From a bacterium (GTDB lineage: Bacteria > Zhuqueibacterota > Zhuqueibacteria > Residuimicrobiales > Krinioviventaceae): a DNA stretch of 64,000 bases. The notes beneath the pieces were generated by a model. The model did no database searches. It was not told the origin of the DNA and saw nothing but the letters and a program-made list of their open reading frames with translations. The translations under genes and the position numbers were made by a program. The stretch covers positions 1,088,001 through 1,152,000 of the forward strand of contig CAXXMD010000002.1 in NCBI GenBank assembly GCA_963675755.2, in the 5' to 3' direction. Position 1 is the first letter of the stretch; every line of letters starts with the position of its first letter. Below, piece by piece: positions 1,351 to 42,337 of the stretch.

Positions 1351-2718
1351 CTATTCAAGCAGAGTCATTTTCTTGGTCATTACACCATTTGGGGTTTCAA
1401 GACGATAGAAGTAAATGCCAGATGGCAATTCTTTGGCTTCAAAAGTAACCTTGTGTTCGCCTGCTGCCATTCTGCCGTTAACCAACTGTGCCACACGGTG
1501 TCCCAGCAAATTGTAAACATTCAATATAGTTTGTCCATCTTTAGCAAGTGAGAATTGAATGCTGGTTTCAGGATTAAAGGGATTGGGGTAATTTTGTTTC
1601 AATGCCATGGTTTGAGGCAGTGTTTCTGCATTATCATCTTCAATTGCGGTTGCATTTGTTGCCCAACGAGGATCACCGATGGCTCCACCGTCTGAGGCAT
1701 ATGTTAACAATGCTGAACCGGCAGGTAATGTAAAATCACCATTATCGGGATCAGCAAATTCAGGATCAACAGCCAAAGTATCAGATACAGGATGATCACG
1801 CCAGTTGCGCGCACCTACATCCCACAAACAAATATTATTGATAACTGCCTGTTCCGGAGTTACGGTTTCTTTGATATTGATAACAACCTTGTCTTTATTG
1901 AGCTGTTTTACACAAATAGAGTTACTTACCTGCCATTGGCCCAGGTGTGGACCTTTTTCGCATAGAATAACTTCACGACCATCTTCAGTACCAATGTTAT
2001 ACCAGGTGGTGTGGTCAATAACAACCGATGGTGTATTCAAGGGGAAATTGCTCTCAACAGGGCCAGCTACGCGAAAACCATAACTATTAATCGTATTAAA
2101 AGTAGAATTAGTTAAAGAAATAAAATTGGCACCACAGTATTTATAGTATATAGAAGTACCCGTGTTTTCCATAATTACATTATCTACAAAAGTAGAATCT
2201 ACAATAACATTACCGCGCATATCTGAACCACCTGCGGCAATAACGTCACTGATAAAATCATGAATGTAACAATTTTCTACTCTGATTTTATTAATAGTAG
2301 CTTCGGCTGGGGTTTCACCCATGTAAAAGGTAATCAGATAATCTGCACTGGGAGCACTACTGAAAGAACCATCAATTTCAAGATTCCTTAATGTTAAAGA
2401 GGCATTATCACCCACTTCAAAAAAACGAATGGTACTTTCACCATCGGGGGGAGTTTGAATTTTCAATATTGCTTTAGAAGCTGCGGCATCACCACCTTCA
2501 ACATCAATCGTAATATTTTTGTCTACAATGGTACCAAAAATATACCCTGTTGATTCGGTGTATTCACCTTCAGGTACCAGTTCAAGCACATCTCCATCCT
2601 GAGCATCTGTAAGGGCCTGGGTTAAGGTACCTTCACCTGGAAATACGGTAACAACATTTTGTGAAAAACCAACTGCAGTGAATGCAATCAAACATACAAT
2701 AACTAACCAATTCTTCAT
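1351..2718 (-). CDS. Secreted beta-helix protein (DUF5123-like end) with T9SS-like C-terminal sorting domain
   Basis: Signal peptide, beta-helix-like repeats, DFTLPAGSALLT...AIGDPRW, then QNYPNPFNP...SGIYFYRL...KKMTLLE; GGAGG RBS. Confidence 0.75.
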   Translation of the reverse strand: MKNWLVIVCLIAFTAVGFSQNVVTVFPGEGTLTQALTDAQDGDVLELVPEGEYTESTGYIFGTIVDKNITIDVEGGDAAASKAILKIQTPPDGESTIRFFEVGDNASLTLRNLEIDGSFSSAPSADYLITFYMGETPAEATINKIRVENCYIHDFISDVIAAGGSDMRGNVIVDSTFVDNVIMENTGTSIYYKYCGANFISLTNSTFNTINSYGFRVAGPVESNFPLNTPSVVIDHTTWYNIGTEDGREVILCEKGPHLGQWQVSNSICVKQLNKDKVVINIKETVTPEQAVINNICLWDVGARNWRDHPVSDTLAVDPEFADPDNGDFTLPAGSALLTYASDGGAIGDPRWATNATAIEDDNAETLPQTMALKQNYPNPFNPETSIQFSLAKDGQTILNVYNLLGHRVAQLVNGRMAAGEHKVTFEAKELPSGIYFYRLETPNGVMTKKMTLLE

Positions 2719-2806
2719 TTCTCATTCCTCCGTAATATTTATGATTATTGATATTTAATTCAGGTATCATAAAATCCTGACAAACATTACAGTGGAATAT
2801 AATATG

Positions 2807-2831
2807 AAAAGCAGGATTTGTAAATCCTGCT
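2807..2831 (-). terminator. Probable intrinsic terminator after the HTCS gene
   Basis: AGCAGGATTT-gt-AAATCCTGCT inverted repeat, followed by a short T run on the minus strand. Confidence 0.55.
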
Positions 2832-2899
2832 CAGTTCAGAAAAGGTTCAATATTGTTCAAACGGGGTATAAATGCGTATTTTGTGGTATTTTGAGGGTT

Positions 2900-5800
2900 C
2901 TATTCTTGAATCTCTGTTTCAGACTCTCGATATTCAGAGGGGGTTTTGCTGTATTCCTGCTGAAAGCAGGTACTAAAATATTTGGGATATTTGAATCCAA
3001 CCCGGTATGCAATTTCACTAACTGTAAAATCGGTTTTGTGCAGCATCTGCGCAGCCTTTTTAAGACGAACAGCTTTAATGAATTCCTGTGGAGAATACCC
3101 AATCAATTCCTTTAATTTCATAAACATCATGGTTCGGCTTACACCAACATGATAAGCAAGATGATTCACACCCAATTCCGGATCAGATAAATGTTCTTCA
3201 ATATAATCCCGTATCTGTACAAGCATTTTTTCATCATGAGAAAACGGTGTAACCTGAGAAGGTTCAATAATGAGTTCTTTGCGATAACGTTCCTGTAACA
3301 TTTTTCGGGATTTTAACATGTTGGTTACACGGGCATCAAGAAACCGAAAATGAAAAGGTTTCTCAATATAATCATCTGCGCCAAACTCCATACCCTGGAT
3401 TTTATCTTCGACCTCACTTTTAGCAGAAAGCAATATTATAGGTATATGACTTGTAGAAATTTCACCTTTTAATCTTTTACACAATTCAATACCATCTATT
3501 CCCGGCATAACTACATCGCTTATAATAAGGCTAGGCATACGGGATTCTGCAAGTTCAAGGCCCATGTTACCATCGGGGGCATCAATAACATCATACTTTT
3601 TGGACAACTGTTTTTTTAAATACGCCCGCATTTCCGGATCATCTTCTACAAGCAGTAATAAAGTTCGTTTATCATTTTCATCATTAGAATCAAACTCTTG
3701 TTCTCTAATATCCCAAATTTCTTCGATATCAGATACATTTAAATTTGTCAAATGGTTAGCACCATTCCCAACATGATGCATTTCCAATTCCGCCAAATGG
3801 TCCGTACCAAATGGAAGTTTAACTGTGAATTCACTACCTGATTCTTCCGAGCTTTGAACGAGCAATGTTCCGGAATGCAGCTCTACAAACTTTTTGGATA
3901 AAGCAAGCCCTAATCCTGAACTTGCCTGTCCCTGTCTATACCCACCCTTGGCATTGTAAAAACGCTCAAAAATGTGAGGCAAATCCTCTTCACTAATCCC
4001 TTTTCCAGTATCACTCACTTTGATCATAATAAAAGATTTTTCATTCTCGGTCTGATTTTCAATGCTGACTTTGATATAACCATAATCAGGTGTATATTTA
4101 AAGGCATTATCAATCAGGTTCACCAAGACTTCTTCCAACTTGGACCAGTCAAACCATCCTTCAATTGTATCCTGATCTATATTCAATTCATAATCAATAT
4201 GGTGCTTTTTAGCGGTTTCGGAAAACAATTCATATATACGGCGTACAAATTGAATCAGATCCCCTTTTGTAGTTTCAAGGGGCATTTTGCCATGTTCAAC
4301 ACGTCTGAAACAGAGTAATTGTTGTACAAGACGCATAAGATAACGTACATTTCGATACATTAAACCCATCTCATCTTTATGCTGATCACCTTTATTAGCA
4401 GCAAGCATCTCTTCAAGGGGAGCCTGTATCAATGTGAGTGGGGTTTTAAACTCGTGTGCAATATCAGTAAAAAACTGGAGTTTAAACTGGTTCATTTCTT
4501 TAGCCTTTTTACGCTCCAGTCTTTCCAACTTTAATTCATGTTTAACGTTGATCAAAGCAAAAATATAAGCGTTGATACCATAAATCAAACCAATGCCAAC
4601 AATACCATAAATTAAATAAGCCCATATGGTTCGGCTAAATGGCCGGGGTATATAAATATTCAAAGAAGCTCCGGTTTCATTCCATACGCCGTCGCTGTTT
4701 GAACCTTTAACTTTAAAAGTATAATGGCCGGGATCAAGGTTGGTATAATTGGCAAACCGTCTGGTCCCGGTATAGTTCCATTCCTGCTCAAAACCCTCCA
4801 GAATATAGGCAAATTGGTTCTTTTCAGGAGAAATATAATCCAGCGCTGCAAATTCAAGAGATATCTGATTTTTATCAAAATCGAGACGTAACGTATCATT
4901 TCCCTGTACATAGGGGAATACACTTTTATTCAAAGGTTTATTTAAAACATTGATATTTGTAATAACAATGGGCGGTATAAGAGGATTGGCCATTTTCTCT
5001 ACATAATCCGGAAAAAAAGCGTTAAATCCGTTATTGCCGCCAAAGAACAACTCGCCGGTTTTGCTCTGAAAGCAGGAACGGTTCCAAAACTGGTTTCCCT
5101 GCAAACCATCCTGTACATCATAATTTGTAAATTTTTGTTCATTACTTTCAAATTTGGATATTCCATTGGTTGTACTCAGCCACAAATTTCCATTTGTATC
5201 TTCTACTATACCGGCAATTACATTACTGGGCATGCCATCTGATTTATCAAAACGGATAAAATCATCATTTTCTGAATTATATTGATTCAATCCCTTACGC
5301 GTTGCAATCCATAAACGGTCTTGAGAATCCTGAAAAATGTACTGGATAAAGTTACTGCTGAGACTGTTTGAAAAATTAGCATCAGCGCGATAATGGGTAT
5401 AACTATTATCAACTGGATTAAATGCTACCAGACCGGATCGCAAGTACCCGATCCAGAGTATTCCTTGTTTGTCAAAACAGATAGATACTACAGATTCATC
5501 ATCAAGTACACCGGTTGAATCAAATTCCACTGGTTTAAAGATACCCGTACTTTTTTCAAAATAAATCACCCCTCCATTTGTTCCCAGCCATAATCCCTCC
5601 TCATCTTGCTGCAAAATCGCATTGATAAAATTATTTCCGGTAATAGGAGTAATTGTTACATAATATCTATGGAACATGCCATTTTCGATATTAAATTTAT
5701 TGAGACCTTCTTTTGTACCCGCCCAAATTGTACCGGTATTGTCTTCCAATATACAGGTAACCTGATTACTGCTAATGGTAAATGAATTGTTAACATTATA

Positions 5801-34081: not shown

Positions 34082-36424
34082 CTAATTACGAATAATCTCA
34101 ACAGTTCCGGTTTCACCGTTTATTTCAATCAAATCACCATTTTTTATAAGCTGGGTTGCACTGGCAATTCCTGTTACCGTAGCAAGGCCAAATTCACGTG
34201 CAACAATGGATGCATGAGAAAGTACGCCCCCGGTTTCCAGCACCATACCCGAGATATAGGAAAAAACCGGTGACCAAGCTGGATCCGCAGAATGGGCAAC
34301 CAATATCTCATCATCGCCAATTTGTCTGGCCTGATCCAAAGTACGGGCAACAAACGCCCTGCCCCTGCTAATGCCTCGACTGACTCCAAATCCCTGCAAT
34401 CGTTCAAAATCATGCGGTTCATGTGATTTGGGTTGGGCTTGAGATCCTTCCAGCAATGATTGATACGCCTGCTTTCTTGATTGAATTTGCTCGTCAGGGA
34501 TTGTTGAATCAATAAAAGATTGAATCAATTCAGCCCGATCCATAAAAAACACATCATCTGCATGGACGAGTTTATCAGCTTTGTATAATATATTACCATA
34601 TTCAATGACAACATCCCGCATTACAGATAAAATCTTGTGCCACTCGTTGCGCTGATTTTCTCGCAGCAGCGTAAATTCTCTGGCGTATTTCAATAATAGA
34701 AAAAATATCCCTTTTAACAAAGGACGAATAAATAGGGACTGGTTATTAATTTGCTGAATACAGTTCTGTTCTGCCTGGTTGCTACGATTCAATAAATCCT
34801 TACGATTAGTAGAAAATTTCTCACCTGCGTTATTATTCTTGTTTAAAAGATCAGTCATATCTTTCCAAACCGGTTGAAAAATATCCAGACTTTCTGAACG
34901 GTGGCCATACAATTCATGAAAAGTTTTGATATCAGCATCCGTTTCAATAGCAAGCATAGCACGGTTGGCTTTGATTGTCTCATTCTCTTCAAAACCGGTC
35001 AACAAATCCGTCAAGGTCTCTTCAATCTGTTTGATTTTGCAGATTTGAAGACATTTTTTCAACAAGGCATAAAATATATCGGCAAAGGTTATACTCCATC
35101 GATGGAGTGATAAAAACCGGTCTGTTAGTTTTTCTGCTTCCTCAAAAACTGAAAACAATTTATCCTTTTGAGACAATTGGGCTTTCAATACCGGTAGTTT
35201 TTCTTTGTTCAGATTGGAAAATTGTTTCCATTTTATCAAATTCACACCAGGAATCCAGTTAAAATCACCGGTTAAAATCAAACGAAACAGATAGCGGAAT
35301 CCACGCCAGCTGTTTCTAAACCAGACATTACGATGTCCCAATAACAGTGATGCCTGTTTATCAAGCGAGATAAAATTTAAAGGAATGACAGAATATAGAC
35401 TTTGAAATACGGAGATACGTGTAAATGGAAATCCTTTAAACAACCGGGTTATATTTTCGGATGTAGCAAGCTTTCCATAGCCTAATCCTTTCAAAGGATC
35501 ACGATAAGCATTATTTTCCATCCATTTTTGTAATATGGACCAACCCAGGGGTGATAACGGTTTTGTAAAGCGCTCTGCAAAAAAATAATCAGTCCAGATT
35601 CCCCCCTCTTTATCAACGCGAATGCGTTGTCTGCTTACACTGTTGGTTACAGGACGGGATTGTAAAATCCAGACTTTATTGTTCTCAATTGCCCATTCAA
35701 TATCCTGATTGGCACCAAGTATCAATTCGATTTTGAGTCCCAGTTCAAGCAGTGATTTTAGCTGATCAGCAAATTCTGTTTGTTGTGACAAGGTTTTCCA
35801 CAGCCCGGTATTACCGGTTACAGATTTTATCGCTAATCCATTTCGGTTAATAGATATCCGTACCGGATCTATTTCACCGGACACCAGGCCTTCCCCATAT
35901 CCCTGAACAATTTCTAGTAAAAATGTATCCTGGTCACCAGTTACCGGATGTCGGGTAAATAATACACCCGCAAAATCAGGATTTATCATTTGCTGCAGCA
36001 TGACAGCCATCACTGCATGTTTATCAGAAAATCCAAATTGTTCCAAGTAGGTTGATACATGTGATGAGTCCAAAGATTTCCAGCAATCAGATATGGCATT
36101 TACCAGATTCTCCTTACCGGAAACATTTAAAAACGTTTCAAACTGACCGGCCAGAGAAAAGGATGCATGGTCTTCAAATGGAGCTGAAGAACGGACTGCG
36201 TATTTATTTTGAGGATTAAAGTTGGTTAGCGAGTCGAGTTGTTTTTGCAGTTTAAATAAAGATTTGCTTCTGTATTTTTTAAAAGCACAAGTAGTTACAA
36301 CATAAAATTCAGGAACAGGTATACCCATTTCAGCAAGTAAAGATAACCTGCCGGCTTTGGCACCGGTCAGGTTAATATTGGATGCACATACAGCATCCTT
36401 ATGTAAAATAGCGTTTATCTTCAT
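34082..36424 (-). CDS. PEP-utilising phosphotransferase (ATP-grasp, central domain, phospho-His swivel; rifamycin-phosphotransferase-like architecture)
   Basis: GAKA, AVRSSA..ED..SLAGQFET, DIEWA...ILQSRPVT, and C-terminal GGVLSHASIVAREFG; no pyruvate-binding TIM barrel. Confidence 0.85.
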   Translation of the reverse strand: MKINAILHKDAVCASNINLTGAKAGRLSLLAEMGIPVPEFYVVTTCAFKKYRSKSLFKLQKQLDSLTNFNPQNKYAVRSSAPFEDHASFSLAGQFETFLNVSGKENLVNAISDCWKSLDSSHVSTYLEQFGFSDKHAVMAVMLQQMINPDFAGVLFTRHPVTGDQDTFLLEIVQGYGEGLVSGEIDPVRISINRNGLAIKSVTGNTGLWKTLSQQTEFADQLKSLLELGLKIELILGANQDIEWAIENNKVWILQSRPVTNSVSRQRIRVDKEGGIWTDYFFAERFTKPLSPLGWSILQKWMENNAYRDPLKGLGYGKLATSENITRLFKGFPFTRISVFQSLYSVIPLNFISLDKQASLLLGHRNVWFRNSWRGFRYLFRLILTGDFNWIPGVNLIKWKQFSNLNKEKLPVLKAQLSQKDKLFSVFEEAEKLTDRFLSLHRWSITFADIFYALLKKCLQICKIKQIEETLTDLLTGFEENETIKANRAMLAIETDADIKTFHELYGHRSESLDIFQPVWKDMTDLLNKNNNAGEKFSTNRKDLLNRSNQAEQNCIQQINNQSLFIRPLLKGIFFLLLKYAREFTLLRENQRNEWHKILSVMRDVVIEYGNILYKADKLVHADDVFFMDRAELIQSFIDSTIPDEQIQSRKQAYQSLLEGSQAQPKSHEPHDFERLQGFGVSRGISRGRAFVARTLDQARQIGDDEILVAHSADPAWSPVFSYISGMVLETGGVLSHASIVAREFGLATVTGIASATQLIKNGDLIEINGETGTVEIIRN

Positions 36425-36437
36425 TCATGTGTCTTGA

Positions 36438-37436
36438 TCAATTCCGGCTTTTTAATTTAACGCTGTTAATTTGATCTAGCTGCAATTTTTCTAATTCTTT
36501 GTCAAAATTGTCCAGTAATTTCAACATTTCAAGATCATCTACCATATCTTCTTTTAACGGCAAACTTTTACTATTATGATCTAAAATATTCTTTTTACTA
36601 TCCAATGTCAGCGTAAGAATGCTGCCATACTTGCCCATACTTACAGAAGAGGCTACAATTGCGTCAAATTTATCACGCGGGTTAACTAGATAATATTGCC
36701 CGCCCATAATCGCGATATCAATATCAGGTACCGTTTCCAGAATATCTTTTAATTTTTTATAATTGCCATTATACAACAATACAACCAGATCTGCTTTTTT
36801 CTTGACCTTGGGTACCAAGTCTTTAGCTACCAGAACCGGATCTTTGCAATATAACATTGGCTCTTTTAATCGTTTTGAAAAGAGCATACCTCTGTCATCA
36901 CATAAACCAATTAAACCCAAAGAAATAGATTTGAATGGCAATCCACTGTCATCCTGTGCTTTGACAGTTTGAACTTGAAAAGGCTCGGTAAACGGTTCAT
37001 CCGTATCTTGATAAAATGTATTGGACGCAAGAAAATTGATATCATTCTCTTTTGCAAGCTCTTTCAAAACCTCACCACCGTTAATAAATTCACGGTGGGC
37101 CAGATTTATATTCTTGTATCCAAAACCGGACATGGTATGGACAAGGTAATCCGTATATAACTGGCTGATTTGATTTGCACCACGACTAAAGCCGCCGGCA
37201 TCCAGAAATACATTAAAATTGTTTTCATTTAAATGATCTTTAATAAAAGTAGCCCGCCGGGCTACTCCGCCGTAGCGTGCGGTCTTTCACCCACAGGGGC
37301 GAACATAGCCCATCAGATCATTTGTATGAAATATACTCAGCGTAGCAGTTGCTGTTGAATCTACTGCCTCAGAAGTACGTCCACAACCCAGGACCAATAT
37401 GGCTATAGATACAACAAATTTCATCAGTGTTTTCAT
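36438..37436 (-). CDS. UshA/5'-nucleotidase-like lipoprotein, probable selenoprotein (Sec at codon 50), 332 aa
   Basis: Hand translation from the ATG at 37436: MKTLMKFVVSIAILVLGC (lipobox)...IFHTNDLMGYVRPCG-TGA(37289-37287)-KTARYGGVARRATF...FLDAGG. It continues in frame into track ORF 36438..37133, and a hairpin follows the TGA. Confidence 0.85.
37248..37276 (-). promoter_or_regulatory. Candidate bacterial SECIS element
   Basis: GCUAC-GGCGGA-GUAGC stem-loop starts 11 nt after the UGA, with a G-initiated loop at +16. An overlapping AGUAGCCC-GGC-GGGCUACU stem is an alternative fold. Confidence 0.65.
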
Positions 37437-37518: not shown

Positions 37519-37546
37519 CAAGCAGGGTCCCCTGTTACCCTGCTTG
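37519..37546 (-). terminator. Probable terminator after the PorV-like gene
   Basis: CAAGCAGGGT...ACCCTGCTTG 10-bp inverted repeat 12 nt after the stop; weak U tail. Confidence 0.6.
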
Positions 37547-37558
37547 ATTAATATTCAA

Positions 37559-39379
37559 TTAATTTCGTTTTACAAATATAAAATTTTCAAGAGCTTGAAT
37601 TTCTGCATTCACCGGACCTGTTAAATCCAAAACGATTCGGGTATACGGGCCATTGGGATGGAATCCCAGTCGGGCACGAATAAAGGGTCCACGATTCAAG
37701 GGTATCTCTTTAACGTCAGAAAGCATATAGACATTGGGAACGTCTATTATCAACCGTTCAGGCGAACTAAATGTACGTGTGGTATATTCGACTTTACCAT
37801 TAAAAATAATCTGAATCACCTGATCGTTAACAGCCTTGACTGTAATCAATGCAGAGCCATTTGGCATTTCTGGTTTAGAATTATTTGTAAACAACTCAAA
37901 TTCAACACGGCGGTTACGTTCTCTTCCCTCTTCGGTAGAATTGGGCGCTACAGGCTGCATTTCACCATAACCAATAGGCATATAAAATTTCTTGTCCGTA
38001 AAATTCTTGGTCTCTTTGAGGTAATTGATCACACTGGTTATGCGCTTTTGAGACAGGCGAATATTATACCAATCTGTACCGATACTGTCAGTATGTCCGG
38101 AAACATGTACAACTGAATTGGGATAATTTGCCAGAATATCACCCACCTGATTTACAGTGGACTCGTCAGAATCACGAATATCTGATTTATCAAAATCAAA
38201 ATTGATACGCATACTTACCAAAATCTTGTTATCCGCTTTTTGCTCTACTTCAATCTTGCCGTCACTGTCAGCGGCAATTTGTTGTGCGCGAGCCAAACGT
38301 CGGGCCATTTCATCTTTCATTTTGTCCAATTCCATTCGGGACTGGCGGGCAGCTTCCAGTTCACGCTGCAGTAACTCGTCATAATTATTTTCTTTTTTCT
38401 TCTCTACACCAAAATTCAAGAGAATGGAGAAACGATGAATATCTGCTTCTAGGGCATCAACCGGAGAATAAGCATAATCAATACGCGTTTCAGAATTGGC
38501 CAGCCATTCCATAGGAATATTTAAACCAAACCCCGCAGATATGGGAGAAGCCGCAACATCATGCAATTGATATCCTGCACGCAAAAATAATAAATCCGAC
38601 AATACAATTTCACTACCCATATAATAACGTAGATTTTCTTTCAAAGTCCATGCAACATCACCGGCAAAATTAATATTCATAGATTCTGATTTACCAAGGC
38701 TATAGCCGGCACCAAAACGAAAAGTAGTGGGCAAAGGAGAAGACATGTCTCTAAATTTTGCTTTGGTAATACCAATATTCTGAATGGTACCACCAAACAT
38801 GATATCATAAAGAGTAAACTGGGTACCAACATCAATTGCAAGAGCCGAGCTCTGTTCACCGGCAAGAGTCTGGCGTAAAAATTTTACATCGGCACCTACT
38901 CCAAACACATAATCCCATAATCCCAAACGTGTACCAAAACCCAATGTTGCAAGAATATCATCACCTGTTGCGGTTCCACCGGTTTCTCTAAAATTGACAT
39001 CCATTTCAGTGATTGAACCTTCATTGAAATAGGTCAAATCCATTCCTATAACACCGTAACGCATGGGAAACGCAAAAGCAAAAGAACCTTGCTGTGTATC
39101 ATCAATCCAGTTATGAAAATTCATAGACAGCATTTCATTAGACAATTGACCCAAACCACCAATATTGTAACGCATTAGGTTCACATCATCAGCAAATGCA
39201 GTAAAGGCTTCACCCATAGCTACCTGACGCGCAGCCGGACTGATCTTGAGAAACGGAGCTCCATGGTAGCCAATTCCGGAATTAGATGCACTAAAAGCAG
39301 TTTGAGCAAGAAATGATATGAATACACAAATATAGATGTATATGTGTTTTAAATATTTTTTTTGAAATATGGTTTTCAT
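37559..39379 (-). CDS. PorV/PorQ (UPF0164)-like outer-membrane barrel fused to OmpA-like and AMIN-like domains
   Basis: GAPFLKISPAARQVAMGEAFTA...IDYAYSP...HRFSI barrel, then a coiled linker, then INFDFDKS..GHTDSIG..YNIRLSQKR..GYGE..NRRVE (OmpA-C), then SSPERLIIDVP..TRIVLDL (AMIN-like). Confidence 0.82.
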   Translation of the reverse strand: MKTIFQKKYLKHIYIYICVFISFLAQTAFSASNSGIGYHGAPFLKISPAARQVAMGEAFTAFADDVNLMRYNIGGLGQLSNEMLSMNFHNWIDDTQQGSFAFAFPMRYGVIGMDLTYFNEGSITEMDVNFRETGGTATGDDILATLGFGTRLGLWDYVFGVGADVKFLRQTLAGEQSSALAIDVGTQFTLYDIMFGGTIQNIGITKAKFRDMSSPLPTTFRFGAGYSLGKSESMNINFAGDVAWTLKENLRYYMGSEIVLSDLLFLRAGYQLHDVAASPISAGFGLNIPMEWLANSETRIDYAYSPVDALEADIHRFSILLNFGVEKKKENNYDELLQRELEAARQSRMELDKMKDEMARRLARAQQIAADSDGKIEVEQKADNKILVSMRINFDFDKSDIRDSDESTVNQVGDILANYPNSVVHVSGHTDSIGTDWYNIRLSQKRITSVINYLKETKNFTDKKFYMPIGYGEMQPVAPNSTEEGRERNRRVEFELFTNNSKPEMPNGSALITVKAVNDQVIQIIFNGKVEYTTRTFSSPERLIIDVPNVYMLSDVKEIPLNRGPFIRARLGFHPNGPYTRIVLDLTGPVNAEIQALENFIFVKRN

Positions 39380-39424: not shown

Positions 39425-42337
39425 TTATCGAACAACCATGAACTTGCGAAATATAGCGATTTGTTCGGATTGACCGGATTCATCGGTTATCAAGTCTGCG
39501 TGTACTTTGAGCCAATACGTACCGCTGCTTACTTTGTGACCGCTGTCATTATATAAATCCCACCAGTAATCTACAACACCGTACTTTTCTTTGGGTACGG
39601 TACTTCCTGTATCAAAAGAGAGTGAATTTCCATCAATTTCTTTAACTTTTTCACCGGCAAGTGAATACACCTCTACTTTGCGTACAATCAAAGAACCCGT
39701 TGCAGAAGCAACACGCATACGAAAATTGGTAGCAGAATATTCAAAATATGGATTAGGAGCCACTTCAACAATATAAGGCTCTCCCCCTAAATCAATCACT
39801 ACATTAGGTTCACTCGGTACCAGTACAGATCGGGTTAATATCACATTATCAATATATTCAGCCTGTATACTTCCGCCAAAAGAACTTTGCAATATACCGT
39901 CATTGATATCGATTCCATTGGTATTATCGGTAATAAGAATACCTTCACGGTTTATAAAATCACCGGTATTATAAATCCCTTGGTTGTCAGGAATCTCGTA
40001 CAGGTATATATCTTCCCTATCCAGTGCTGTATTTTTTAATGTAACTTCTAATGAATCCTGGGTGATAGGATTCAGGTTTTTGTCCATTTCATCTGTAATT
40101 CTAACAAAAATAACCTGATCAAATTCAGCCTGGCTTAGAGAAACGCCCTGATTGTTTTCAATTGTCATATTGCCATTTGTTGCCAAAACGACCAGCACCG
40201 AATCCATTGAAATATCAGTCATGTCATTTACATCCTGATACATAACAGCAAGCGTATCTCTGTCCACAACTTCGAGGGTGTCATTACCCGGAGTAAATGT
40301 TGCAGAAATTTTTATTGGAATTCCCTCACTGTTTTGAAAAAAAGATTGTTTTAAATCCAGAGTAACCGTTTCAGAGTCTCCACTTATACAGGCAGTTACC
40401 GGCACATCAAAACTCTGACGAATGGATTCAAGATTATTATCGTCAAGAATAATAAGTGCTTGATCCATTGTTTGCTCATCATCAGGTTCAGTGTCTGATG
40501 CTAAATAGCCATATGTTTTTTCTCCGTCAGAATCAACAAAATGTATTGAAGAAGCTGTTGACTGAACTTCTTCGTAAACCAGTTTCCACCGTACAAGTGC
40601 GGGTGTAACCGCAGAATTTTTTGTACTGGGATACGCATTCAGGTTAATTGACGTAATTCCCAAAAGCGCGGGTATATTTTCAAGATTTACTGTATTTATA
40701 CTCTCATCCGTATTTGCAGAAAACTCGTAAAGCGTACGGTACGGGGATGTATTTTCAATAATTCTGAACAACAAATCAATTGCGCTTCGTTGGACTGCAT
40801 TATCCGGCAAATCCAGTTCACATTCAAAAGTTTTCCAATTGGGAATCAAAGAGTCTGAATCAGTAACACCAATAGAAGATGCCCAGAAATAAGGTTTTGG
40901 GGTTACATTCACATTGGTATCATAATAATGATATTTTACAGTCACTCCCTTTAATACCGGAGTATCTTTGGGGGTATCTGTTTGAAGAAAAGCACGGTAT
41001 TGATAAACACTGTGCGCTTTGTGTTTATCTAAATATAAACGCATACCCGAGCTGGTATACGTTGTAGTACTGTCACCACTGGGACCAATCCAGCTTTGTC
41101 TCTGGATATGGTTCACGTCCGTACCGGATCTGAACTGCATTTCAAGCGAAGTATTGTCACCCGAGTTGGTTTCCGCATTCCAAAAGAGTGAATCAAAATT
41201 CACATCTTTATCTAAAACAAACAGATCAGATTCACGCCAGCCGCTTTCAAAACCAATACGAGCAGGTATGATCTTGTTTGCATCATCATCACGATGAACA
41301 ACCAACAGTTTTTCAGAATCTAGAGATTGTGAGCCAATCTGATCAACATCTTTGAGGGCTTGCAATTCAAGTTTTAATTCCCAAAAATAATCTGTGTTTT
41401 GAGGATCAACTTCAACAATTCGATTGTTGCCGGCATCCGCGATCAAAACATGCCCATTTTCAATCATATCCGCATCAACAGGATTTAACAATCCATACGT
41501 TTCATCGCCAGCCAATTCTTCTGATGGATACTGCCAGACAATCTCTTTGGATGCCCGGGAAACCAGTAATACACGATTATGTCCCTGATCAGTGATCAAA
41601 ACAAGATCCTGATCACCCTGAATATATTCAACATCTACCGGTGAACTGAGAACTAAAGAACCCAACTCCCATACAATACTCTTGTCACTTTTTTCAACAA
41701 TAATTACCCGGTCATTACCACGATCAGCAATGAGAAATTCAGAACTGTCAGCAATTTTTTCAGCATCCGCAGGATTAGACAACTGGTTGGGGCCATTACC
41801 TTCAAGCCCATTGGGATCACCATAATCCCAATCTACGGATTGGGTTTCACGGCCAATCTGTAATACTCGGTGGCTGCCCCTGTCAGTAATCAAAACACGG
41901 TATTGTTCATTTTCCAGAAACTCGAATGCATCAACGGGTAGTACAAGCTCTCCACCGGTATATTCCCAGGTAATTCTTTTCGTTACAGGATTATATATAA
42001 ACACTTTGGAGCCACTGCGCAATGGATCGGTAACCAAATAAAGGTCCTGATCATCAATCGTACGCACATCAATATCTTCAACAGCGCCCAAAGGAATCGT
42101 TTCATCCGGCCAGGTCCAGTCAAATCCACCCAGGGTAAAGTTTTCTAATTGGATATCGTTACCATCCACTTCCCATATTGGGGTTAATGTAATCAATGAA
42201 TCTTTTTGGACACCTTGCTGCACGATTGTTTTAGGAAATGGAGCTGAATCCTGCCAGGTTATTTCCTTTTGTGCAAAAATGTTGCCTGTAACTGTAGTAA
42301 ATAAAAAAATAGCAATATACAGATAATATTTTTTCAT
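39425..42337 (-). CDS. Large secreted protein: NHL-like propeller, Ig-like repeats and variant CTD
   Basis: Signal peptide; repeats VLITDRGSHRV, FLIADRGNDRV, VLITDQGHNRV, VLIADAGNNRI; C-terminal VAPNPY...VYSLAGEKVKEI...WDLYNDSGHKVSSGTY...KFMVVR. Confidence 0.75.
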   Translation of the reverse strand: MKKYYLYIAIFLFTTVTGNIFAQKEITWQDSAPFPKTIVQQGVQKDSLITLTPIWEVDGNDIQLENFTLGGFDWTWPDETIPLGAVEDIDVRTIDDQDLYLVTDPLRSGSKVFIYNPVTKRITWEYTGGELVLPVDAFEFLENEQYRVLITDRGSHRVLQIGRETQSVDWDYGDPNGLEGNGPNQLSNPADAEKIADSSEFLIADRGNDRVIIVEKSDKSIVWELGSLVLSSPVDVEYIQGDQDLVLITDQGHNRVLLVSRASKEIVWQYPSEELAGDETYGLLNPVDADMIENGHVLIADAGNNRIVEVDPQNTDYFWELKLELQALKDVDQIGSQSLDSEKLLVVHRDDDANKIIPARIGFESGWRESDLFVLDKDVNFDSLFWNAETNSGDNTSLEMQFRSGTDVNHIQRQSWIGPSGDSTTTYTSSGMRLYLDKHKAHSVYQYRAFLQTDTPKDTPVLKGVTVKYHYYDTNVNVTPKPYFWASSIGVTDSDSLIPNWKTFECELDLPDNAVQRSAIDLLFRIIENTSPYRTLYEFSANTDESINTVNLENIPALLGITSINLNAYPSTKNSAVTPALVRWKLVYEEVQSTASSIHFVDSDGEKTYGYLASDTEPDDEQTMDQALIILDDNNLESIRQSFDVPVTACISGDSETVTLDLKQSFFQNSEGIPIKISATFTPGNDTLEVVDRDTLAVMYQDVNDMTDISMDSVLVVLATNGNMTIENNQGVSLSQAEFDQVIFVRITDEMDKNLNPITQDSLEVTLKNTALDREDIYLYEIPDNQGIYNTGDFINREGILITDNTNGIDINDGILQSSFGGSIQAEYIDNVILTRSVLVPSEPNVVIDLGGEPYIVEVAPNPYFEYSATNFRMRVASATGSLIVRKVEVYSLAGEKVKEIDGNSLSFDTGSTVPKEKYGVVDYWWDLYNDSGHKVSSGTYWLKVHADLITDESGQSEQIAIFRKFMVVR

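What the first reader, a model, noticed from the sequence alone, without database searches (positions are those of the whole stretch)
36438..37436. Hidden selenoprotein: UshA-like lipoprotein with a C-G-U motif, split by the ORF caller
Seen: the track ORF 36438..37133 has no signal peptide and lacks the first metallophosphoesterase strand. The same frame stays open upstream to the ATG at 37436 except for one TGA at codon 50. Read-through gives a lipobox (LVLGC), IFHTNDLMG, then PCG-U, then GGVARR and FLDAGG, all collinear with the N-terminus of UshA/5'-nucleotidase-fold proteins. Known: UshA-like proteins with CxU/CxC motifs have been reported as a bacterial selenoprotein family of unknown function. 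Inference: this is a 332-aa membrane-anchored selenoprotein. It lacks the C-terminal nucleotidase substrate domain, and its metal motifs are degenerate (DAGG, AHRE and GGQ in place of DxGD, GNHE and GHxH), so it may be a redox or metal-binding protein rather than a phosphatase.
Basis: partly seen in the sequence, partly recalled or inferred. Interest (0 to 1): 0.82.

Follow-up and report, generated by a model that had tools for sequence, protein, structure and literature searches.

The report
Heme-less UshA-like selenoprotein gene
The internal stop codon in this gene is almost certainly read as selenocysteine, giving an exported protein of an already catalogued but untested family, here in a stripped-down form that lacks both the family's heme domain and its metal-binding residues.

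Summary
Confirmed. Window 37436-36438 (-) is one 332-codon frame broken only by TGA at codon 50. The genome has SelA, SelB, SelD and tRNA-Sec. TGA occupies the same column in all 29 relatives examined among the best hits. A SECIS hairpin 28 nt downstream covaries at synonymous sites. Five homologous loci have Cys and no such hairpin; three lie in genomes where Sec machinery was not found.

The family is known: the UshA-like CxU selenoprotein of the 2008 GOS survey, NCBIfam NF041198. This scan has met its heme-fused form in at least 20 other genomes. This protein scores 126.8 bits against a cut-off of 275. It belongs to an order-wide clade (100/100) with no tetraheme tail and none of the remaining metal site (0 of 31, against 31 of 40 in sister lineages), yet the Cys/Sec pair is invariant.

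Best reading (about 55%, inferred): an exported, lipid-anchored thiol/selenol redox or sulfur-transfer module recycled by separate partners. It is not a working nucleotidase. Modest novelty, but a convenient single-domain test protein.

The parts
36438..37436 (-). Complete gene, 332 aa with Sec at residue 50; single 5'-nucleotidase-type N-terminal domain
   Evidence: AlphaFold model of residues 25-332, pLDDT 96.8; VIA Z 29.6, rmsd 2.8 A over 286 residues to E. coli 5'-nucleotidase 1ush_A
37383..37436 (-). Signal peptide ending in lipobox V-L-G-C18 (predicted lipid anchor)
   Evidence: sequence; Cys at this place in 14 of 17 same-family loci by pattern, 3 more by eye; pattern reading only
37287..37295 (-). 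Cys48-Gly49-Sec50 motif; in-frame TGA at 37289-37287
   Evidence: C, G and TGA invariant in 30 of 30 loci
37246..37268 (-). Bacterial SECIS: 8 Watson-Crick pairs (37266-37259 with 37255-37248) plus 2 G-U pairs, loop GGC at 37258-37256, 28 nt after the UGA, -13.8 kcal/mol
   Evidence: covariation; meets all four constraints of the consensus quoted in PMC13188914
37317..37319 (-). Asp40, the only 5'-nucleotidase metal ligand kept (equivalent of E. coli D41)
   Evidence: D in 30 of 30; E. coli numbering recalled, columns anchored on the genome's intact 5'-nucleotidase
36693..37193 (-). Degenerate metal and catalytic positions: G82 (D84), H114-R115 (N116-H117), N223 (H217), G246 (H252), Y248 (H/Q254)
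   Evidence: D84 to G in 30/30, H117 to R/K in 29/30, H217 kept in 3/30, H252 kept in 0/30
36438..37133 (-). Truncated 231-aa ORF given by gene callers (no signal peptide, no CxU)
37519..37546 (.). 10-bp intergenic hairpin between the upstream PorV/OmpA/AMIN gene and this gene; role not tested
   Evidence: terminator-like on + only; 0.9 expected in shuffles, so it may be chance

Best explanation
The mRNA folds a SECIS hairpin over the codons for Val58-Thr63. SelB binds it and inserts Sec at UGA-50. The product is exported and, in this family, acylated at Cys18. It is a dead 5'-nucleotidase N-domain used as a scaffold for a Cys-Gly-Sec pair on the loop after the first strand. Most likely the selenolate attacks an S-S bond (an envelope protein disulfide or a polysulfide), Cys48 resolves the adduct to a Cys48-Sec50 selenenylsulfide, and a separate periplasmic thioredoxin-fold protein or multiheme cytochrome re-reduces it; those are the domains fused to it in homologues. 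Shown by computation: reading frame, Sec machinery, SECIS covariation, fold, loss of ligands and of the heme tail. Inferred: actual Sec insertion (about 97%), lipidation, redox chemistry, substrate and partner.
For: Recoding. In 63 TGA loci the loop-forming Arg codon is CGG in 59, and the two synonymous third positions pair Watson-Crick in 57 (4 more by G-U). The same counts at Ala-Arg-Arg sites in G000's long ORFs are 8 and 34 of 177. The SECIS-bearing Ala is present in 63 of 63 TGA loci and 0 of 5 Cys loci. Redox role: the Cys/Sec pair is invariant while the metal site is gone. Of 24 database homologues scanned with Pfam (a subset of 158, picked mostly for extra length), 9 carry cytochrome c554, 9 a thioredoxin-fold domain (6 DsbA/Trx-like, one of them below Pfam's cut-off; 3 AhpC-TSA/TlpA-like) and 15 at least one of these. 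CxxC is visible in P0061 and P0080. Sec is replaced by Cys where it is lost. Precedent for a periplasmic Sec/Cys pair reduced by hemes that cleaves S-S bonds: MccSep (PMC13510729, abstract and Discussion), an unrelated fold.
Against: No activity has been measured for any family member in the papers found. No trans partner was identified. The stand-alone c554-like protein of this genome (L014) is only 21-27% identical to the fused tails, and 6 genomes with the selenoprotein have no c554 match at E <= 1e-8. Gene neighbours are not redox genes and differ between orders. A C-x-U ring is strained and less usual than CxxU (general knowledge). 8 of the 24 scanned homologues had no Pfam hit and 1 had only a non-redox domain. 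The position of the loop relative to the old metal pocket was not measured, since no model coordinates were available.
Confidence: 0.55

Rival explanations
1. Soft-metal binding protein or periplasmic metal chaperone: Asp40, Cys48 and Sec50 form a new site (Cu, Fe, Ni, Zn or Hg) replacing the lost His ligands of metal 1.
For: Asp40 and Asn39 are invariant with C48/U50 in 30 of 30. In sister lineages metal site 2 (D84, E/D116, H217, H252) is kept while the site-1 His residues are lost (18 heme-fused rows: 18, 18, 17, 18), which fits Cys/Sec having taken over site 1.
Against: The focal clade lost site 2 completely (0 of 31) and has no other invariant His, Met or Cys. There are no metal-transport neighbours. 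The fusions point to thiol-redox partners.
Confidence: 0.2
2. Remodelled hydrolase or transferase of the SoxB type: Sec acts as a nucleophile on a thiosulfonate, thioester or phospho-substrate, without a redox cycle.
For: The fold is shared with SoxB (2wdc_A, Z 27.5, rmsd 4.5 A, 284 aligned). TIGR04486 hits weakly (39.5 bits, cut-off 550). The catalytic His is replaced by a conserved cation (R/K in 29 of 30) that could bind an anion.
Against: All metal ligands but one and the substrate-binding C-domain are missing. SoxB needs a dimetal centre (recalled). A second Cys two residues away is invariant, as expected for a resolving Cys.
Confidence: 0.14
3. Non-catalytic envelope scaffold in which C48-U50 is only a structural bond, working with the PorV/OmpA/AMIN protein encoded upstream.
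For: The PorV-like gene lies directly upstream in 23 of 30 loci of the order. Eukaryotic 5'-nucleotidases have cysteines in the same loop (alignment; their disulfide is recalled).
Against: A dedicated SECIS is kept for the codon across the class, which a structural bond would hardly need. The PorV-like neighbour was not seen beside any locus from outside the order.
Confidence: 0.08
4. The TGA is a true stop, a sequencing error or a Trp codon.
For: 4 of 98 database homologues with the C-x-(C/W) motif show Trp in column 50 (P0027, P0032, P0049, P0084). No RNA or protein evidence is in hand.
Against: TGA is conserved in 63 loci with a covarying hairpin. The genome ends this very gene with TGA, has a CCA tRNA-Trp and a separate UCA tRNA-Sec. 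The upstream codons are under purifying selection. The two Trp rows looked up come from contigs of 1307 and 1163 nt, and P0027 is sister to a TGA locus (100/100), so a code-4 miscall is likely; their DNA could not be read.
Confidence: 0.03

Closest known systems
UshA-like (seleno)protein, NCBIfam NF041198 UshA_like_PCGU = 'COG0737, UshA-like, CxU' of the GOS survey (PMC2398784) and of reviews PMC9312934 and PMC13188914
   Same: PCG-U motif in the same column, 5'-nucleotidase N-domain, export signal. Best NCBIfam hit (E 8.8e-37, model positions 3-296). The GOS supplement shows sequences with a lipoprotein-like leader and PCGUK. Homologues in the same class pass the cut-off (14 of 151 genomes).
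   Different: 126.8 bits against a cut-off of 275. No C-terminal tetraheme c554 domain (0 of 30). The D84/H217/H252 triad is lost in 31 of 31, but kept in 31 of 40 sister rows.
UshA-like (seleno)protein family 2, NCBIfam NF049981
   Same: Short (262-position) UshA-like selenoprotein model; weak hit over the N-terminal 53 positions.
   Different: 29.1 bits against a cut-off of 140. Listed motif CxxU (PMC13188914), here CxU.
UshA / CD73 5'-nucleotidases, CpdB and SoxB
   Same: Fold of the N-terminal metallophosphoesterase domain including the linker helix (Z 27-30 to the top six chains).
   Different: No substrate-binding C-domain, one of seven metal ligands kept, catalytic His replaced by Arg. 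The genome has a separate intact 5'-nucleotidase at C3:2101408.
MccSep/ExtKL polysulfide reductase of Geobacter (PMC13510729)
   Same: Periplasmic Sec/Cys pair fed by hemes; a mechanistic analogy for the heme-fused relatives only.
   Different: Unrelated fold. NF040886 reaches its cut-off in 0 of 43 genomes of this order.

Membership tests
Bacterial selenoprotein gene | In-frame UGA aligned with Cys in homologues | tested here: met
   63 TGA and 5 TGC/TGT loci among the 68 of 69 loci that matched the motif
Bacterial selenoprotein gene | SelA, SelB, SelD and tRNA-Sec in the genome | tested here: met
   493, 371 and 377 bits, all over cut-off; tRNA-Sec 68.1 bits, anticodon TCA
Bacterial selenoprotein gene | SECIS: loop 3-9 nt, stem 4-16 bp, G in first two loop positions, 16-37 nt spacing, MFE <= -7.5 | tested here: met
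   loop GGC, 8-10 bp, 28 nt, -13.8 kcal/mol; criteria from PMC13188914; covariation
Bacterial selenoprotein gene | Sec detected in the protein | not testable with these tools
   needs MS or 75Se labelling
NF041198 UshA_like_PCGU | PCG(U/C) motif after the first strand | tested here: met
NF041198 UshA_like_PCGU | Score over the curated cut-off of 275 bits | tested here: not met
   126.8; three orthologue domains 121-159
NF041198 UshA_like_PCGU | C-terminal tetraheme c554-like domain (model positions about 340-519) | tested here: not met
   0 of 30 orthologues have a heme tail; frames end 262-317 codons after the TGA
NF049981 UshA_like_Sel_2 | Score over 140 bits and CxxU motif | tested here: not met
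   29.1 bits; motif CxU
UshA/CD73 5'-nucleotidase | N-terminal metallophosphoesterase fold | tested here: met
UshA/CD73 5'-nucleotidase | Dimetal ligands DxH, D, NH, H, HxH/Q | tested here: not met
   only the first Asp is kept; the genome's intact paralogue keeps all of them in the same alignment
UshA/CD73 5'-nucleotidase | C-terminal substrate-binding domain | tested here: not met
   the protein ends after the linker helix
Bacterial lipoprotein | Hydrophobic leader ending in a lipobox Cys | tested here: inconclusive
   pattern and conservation within the family fit; no predictor or experiment
Thiol/selenol oxidoreductase | Reversible redox-active Cys/Sec pair | not testable with these tools
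   inferred from conservation and fusions

The most novel reading that the evidence does not exclude
An order-wide lineage of KSB1-like bacteria has converted a metallophosphoesterase, in steps that are still visible in its relatives, into a metal-free, heme-free seleno-oxidoreductase or sulfur carrier of the cell envelope. Site-1 His and the substrate domain were lost first, then the heme tail repeatedly, and finally site 2. This would be a thiol-redox catalyst on a fold not known for such chemistry, and it would define the function of the whole UshA-like family.
Probability: 0.35. Interest if true: 0.62.

Novelty: new variant of a known kind. Interest (0 to 1): 0.33.

Why it matters
The UshA-like CxU family has been listed since at least 2008 with no function in the papers found here. 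This clade shows that selection keeps Sec and its SECIS after the hemes and the metal site are gone, so the essential chemistry probably sits in the Cys/Sec pair. A single 300-residue domain needs no heme maturation, and natural Cys versions exist (G092, P0012), which makes it a convenient member for a first assay. It is also an annotation fix: the closest public proteins start after the TGA, and some are labelled nucleotidases.

Tried and rejected
Pfam found nothing in the full protein. The ESM Atlas gave unnamed clusters and one set with Metallophos on 39% of members.

Split-off cytochrome partner: no support. The fused tails match only L014 and L013 at 21-28% identity. The c554 family is found in 36 of 43 genomes of the order without tight co-occurrence. 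NF040886 as a co-occurrence marker was uninformative, 0 of 43 over cut-off.

Heme loss and metal-site loss are not correlated (6 independent pairs, median p 1). Gene neighbourhood was rejected as a functional clue: PorV-like upstream in 23 of 30 loci, PPDK-like downstream in 16 of 30, other neighbours in other orders; flanks were only 1.5 kb.

Structure: a model of a heme-fused relative (P0045, pTM 0.83, CxC block pLDDT 63) and its fold search did not show how the domains dock.

Reads: no RNA holder listed. X7 laid nothing, and the difference table for X3 was cut before the codon.

My first genome-wide SECIS scan missed SelD because its spacing is 38 nt. The wider scan gave 11 candidates, most probably false, and is not a full selenoproteome. 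The genome-contig scan returned one locus only.

Literature searches found table entries for the family and no functional study or description of a heme-less, metal-less CxU clade. The library lacks most subscription papers and bioRxiv supplements, so this does not show absence.

Full report
Observation. The minus-strand frame from ATG 37436 to the stop at 36440-36438 has 332 sense positions and one internal stop, TGA at 37289-37287, codon 50. A mechanical ORF list gives only 36438..37133, 231 aa. The closest database proteins likewise start downstream of the TGA, and a 231-aa form seen on a contig as long as G000:C2 is in the public collection.

The TGA is a Sec codon. G000 (98% complete) has SelA (493 bits), SelB (371), SelD (377, itself with one TGA) and a tRNA-Sec with anticodon TCA (68.1 bits), beside a normal CCA tRNA-Trp. 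The gene ends in TGA, so the genome is not generally recoded. Of 61 genomes searched I read the 30 best loci at codon level: 30 of 30 have TGA in column 50, at 35-95% pairwise identity. Adding loci from the class and phylum, 68 of 69 non-duplicate loci matched the motif, 63 with TGA and 5 with TGC/TGT. Between G000 and G001, codons 1-49 differ at 10 synonymous and 1 non-synonymous codon.

Co-occurrence with the machinery, counted by hand. The 63 TGA loci lie in 62 genomes, 58 of which were in the SelA search, and 56 have SelA. Of the two misses, G099 has SelB and tRNA-Sec, and G138 (76% complete) showed no SelB either. Of the four genomes not in that search, G022 has SelB, G042 has a below-cut-off fragment at a contig end, and G012 and G009 (86% and 73% complete) showed none. 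Three of the five Cys loci are in genomes where SelA and SelB were not found: G092 (96% complete), G061 (98%) and G077 (72%). G061 and G077 have no tRNA-Sec over the cut-off. G092's best hit is 47.0 bits, like the 47.2-bit hit in G000 that ARAGORN calls tRNA-Leu. The other two Cys loci (G073, G153) are in SelA-positive genomes. G092's protein nests among TGA-bearing relatives (99/99), which suggests a Sec-to-Cys reversion. Against: 4 of 98 database homologues with the motif show Trp; I take these for code-4 miscalls but could not read their DNA, and a C in database proteins may hide a U.

SECIS. A hairpin with 8 Watson-Crick pairs, loop GGC and -13.8 kcal/mol lies 28 nt after the UGA and meets the four constraints quoted in PMC13188914 (passages). 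Under my rule 156 of 270,385 TGA triplets in the genome have a stem of 10 or more pairs. On 29 distinct sequences, 84.7% of cells pair, against 22-45% when partners are slid, and one pair is U-A in 19 and C-G in 10 with no mismatch. Both of its bases are synonymous third positions. In the 63 TGA loci the loop codon is CGG in 59 and that pair is Watson-Crick in 57, against 8 and 34 of 177 Ala-Arg-Arg sites in G000's long ORFs. The sequences are related, so these counts are not independent events. All five Cys loci lack the Ala whose codon forms the stem. The genome's selD has a similar hairpin, loop GGA.

The protein. AlphaFold on a 78-row alignment gives pLDDT 96.8. The fold is the N-terminal domain of 5'-nucleotidases: Z 29.6, rmsd 2.8 A over 286 residues to E. 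coli UshA, with SoxB at Z 27.5. In an alignment where the genome's intact nucleotidase shows all its ligands, the 30 orthologues keep only the first Asp (30/30). The bridging Asp is Gly (30/30), the catalytic His is Arg/Lys (29/30), H217 survives in 3 and H252 in none (E. coli numbering recalled). Eighteen heme-fused relatives from the class and phylum keep D84 (18), E/D116 (18), H217 (17) and H252 (18); eighteen heme-less ones keep them in 15, 15, 15 and 13. A maximum-likelihood tree of 72 rows with the motif and ligand columns removed gives the 30 orthologues plus P0012 as one clade (100/100). The D84-H217-H252 triad is intact in 0 of these 31 and in 31 of 40 other rows, and the heme tail needs 7 changes. 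Metal loss is not unique to this clade: a few other rows lack the triad too, as does, by eye, one of the three GOS sequences seen. The lipobox Cys is found across this genome's family (14 of 17 by pattern, 3 by eye), while other families of the order look like soluble exported proteins. One truncated homologue at 49% identity is labelled candidate division KSB1; the window's own lineage was not determined. PMC9012183 (passages) reports selABD in most KSB1 clades.

How it probably works. Strict retention of Cys-Gly-Sec after loss of hemes, metals and substrate domain puts the function in that pair. Among 24 homologues scanned with Pfam (a subset of 158, chosen mostly for extra length), 15 carry cytochrome c554 and/or a thioredoxin-fold domain, two with visible CxxC. 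I therefore favour an envelope thiol/selenol oxidoreductase or sulfur-transfer protein recycled in trans (0.55). The rivals are a soft-metal binder using D40/C48/U50 (0.20), a SoxB-like nucleophilic hydrolase (0.14), a structural scaffold (0.08) and no recoding (0.03). MccSep (PMC13510729, abstract and Discussion) is a precedent for such chemistry on another fold. No partner was found: the stand-alone c554-like protein is only 21-27% identical to the fused tails, and six genomes with this gene lack a c554 match. Neighbours (PorV/OmpA/AMIN upstream in 23 of 30 loci, PPDK-like downstream in 16 of 30) change outside the order and look like conserved gene order. The spatial relation of the loop to the old pocket and to the hemes was not measured.

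Comparison with what is known. The family is the 'COG0737, UshA-like, CxU' selenoprotein with 76 GOS sequences (PMC2398784, passages and one supplement passage), listed in PMC9312934 (table passage) and, as NF041198, in PMC13188914. This protein works like that family and shares its motif, but fails the NF041198 cut-off (126.8 of 275) and the NF049981 cut-off (29.1 of 140), and lacks the heme tail. It should be filed as a related subfamily, not as an NF041198 member, and not as a nucleotidase. The scan's own notes hold 21 findings in at least 20 genomes on this family; the eight listed were all heme-fused, and look-ups for a heme-less form or for look-alike DNA returned nothing or only heme-linked cases. 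Those notes are unchecked leads.

Verdict. Observation confirmed and interpretation supported. New variant of a known kind: an order-wide, heme-less and metal-less clade. Interest 0.33, because the recoding is routine and the family is catalogued, while the minimal architecture makes its unknown function easier to test.

Noticed in passing
G000:C2:660450 (+), in L092: Small ORF with an in-frame TGA (P-T-U-M-S-G-A-C context) and a hairpin with the same GGC loop as this gene's SECIS, upstream of an NADH-oxidase-like flavoprotein ORF and a multiheme cytochrome ORF; probable unannotated selenoprotein (neighbour labels by eye).
   Followed up: partly
G000:C3:572121 (-): Top-scoring TGA read-through candidate of the coding-potential scan (G-F-G-U-G-G context) with a SECIS-like hairpin.
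   Followed up: no
window 37559-39379 (-) and 39425-42337 (-): PorV/PorQ-family barrel fused to OmpA and AMIN domains, preceded by a 970-aa NHL-repeat protein with a weak FlgD-Ig tail hit; looks like a type-IX-like cargo and anchor pair.
   Followed up: partly
window 34082-36424 (-): PPDK_N plus PEP-utiliser protein whose best NCBIfam hits are PEP synthase and rifamycin phosphotransferase-like models, all below cut-off; starts 13 nt after the selenoprotein's stop and follows it in 16 of 30 loci.
   Followed up: partly
L014:1435-1989 (-) and 2363-3421 (+): Stand-alone 184-aa c554-like cytochrome set divergently to a repeat-rich multiheme cytochrome.
   Followed up: partly
P0036, P0070: Proteins of about 1200 aa with two CxC UshA-like domains flanking a DsbA-like region and ending in a tetraheme domain.
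   Followed up: partly
L053 and L089 (G126): One genome carries two TGA-bearing paralogues, one heme-fused and one heme-less.
   Followed up: no
P0012: A full-length database protein with C-A-C inside the otherwise all-TGA clade; its codon could not be read.
   Followed up: partly
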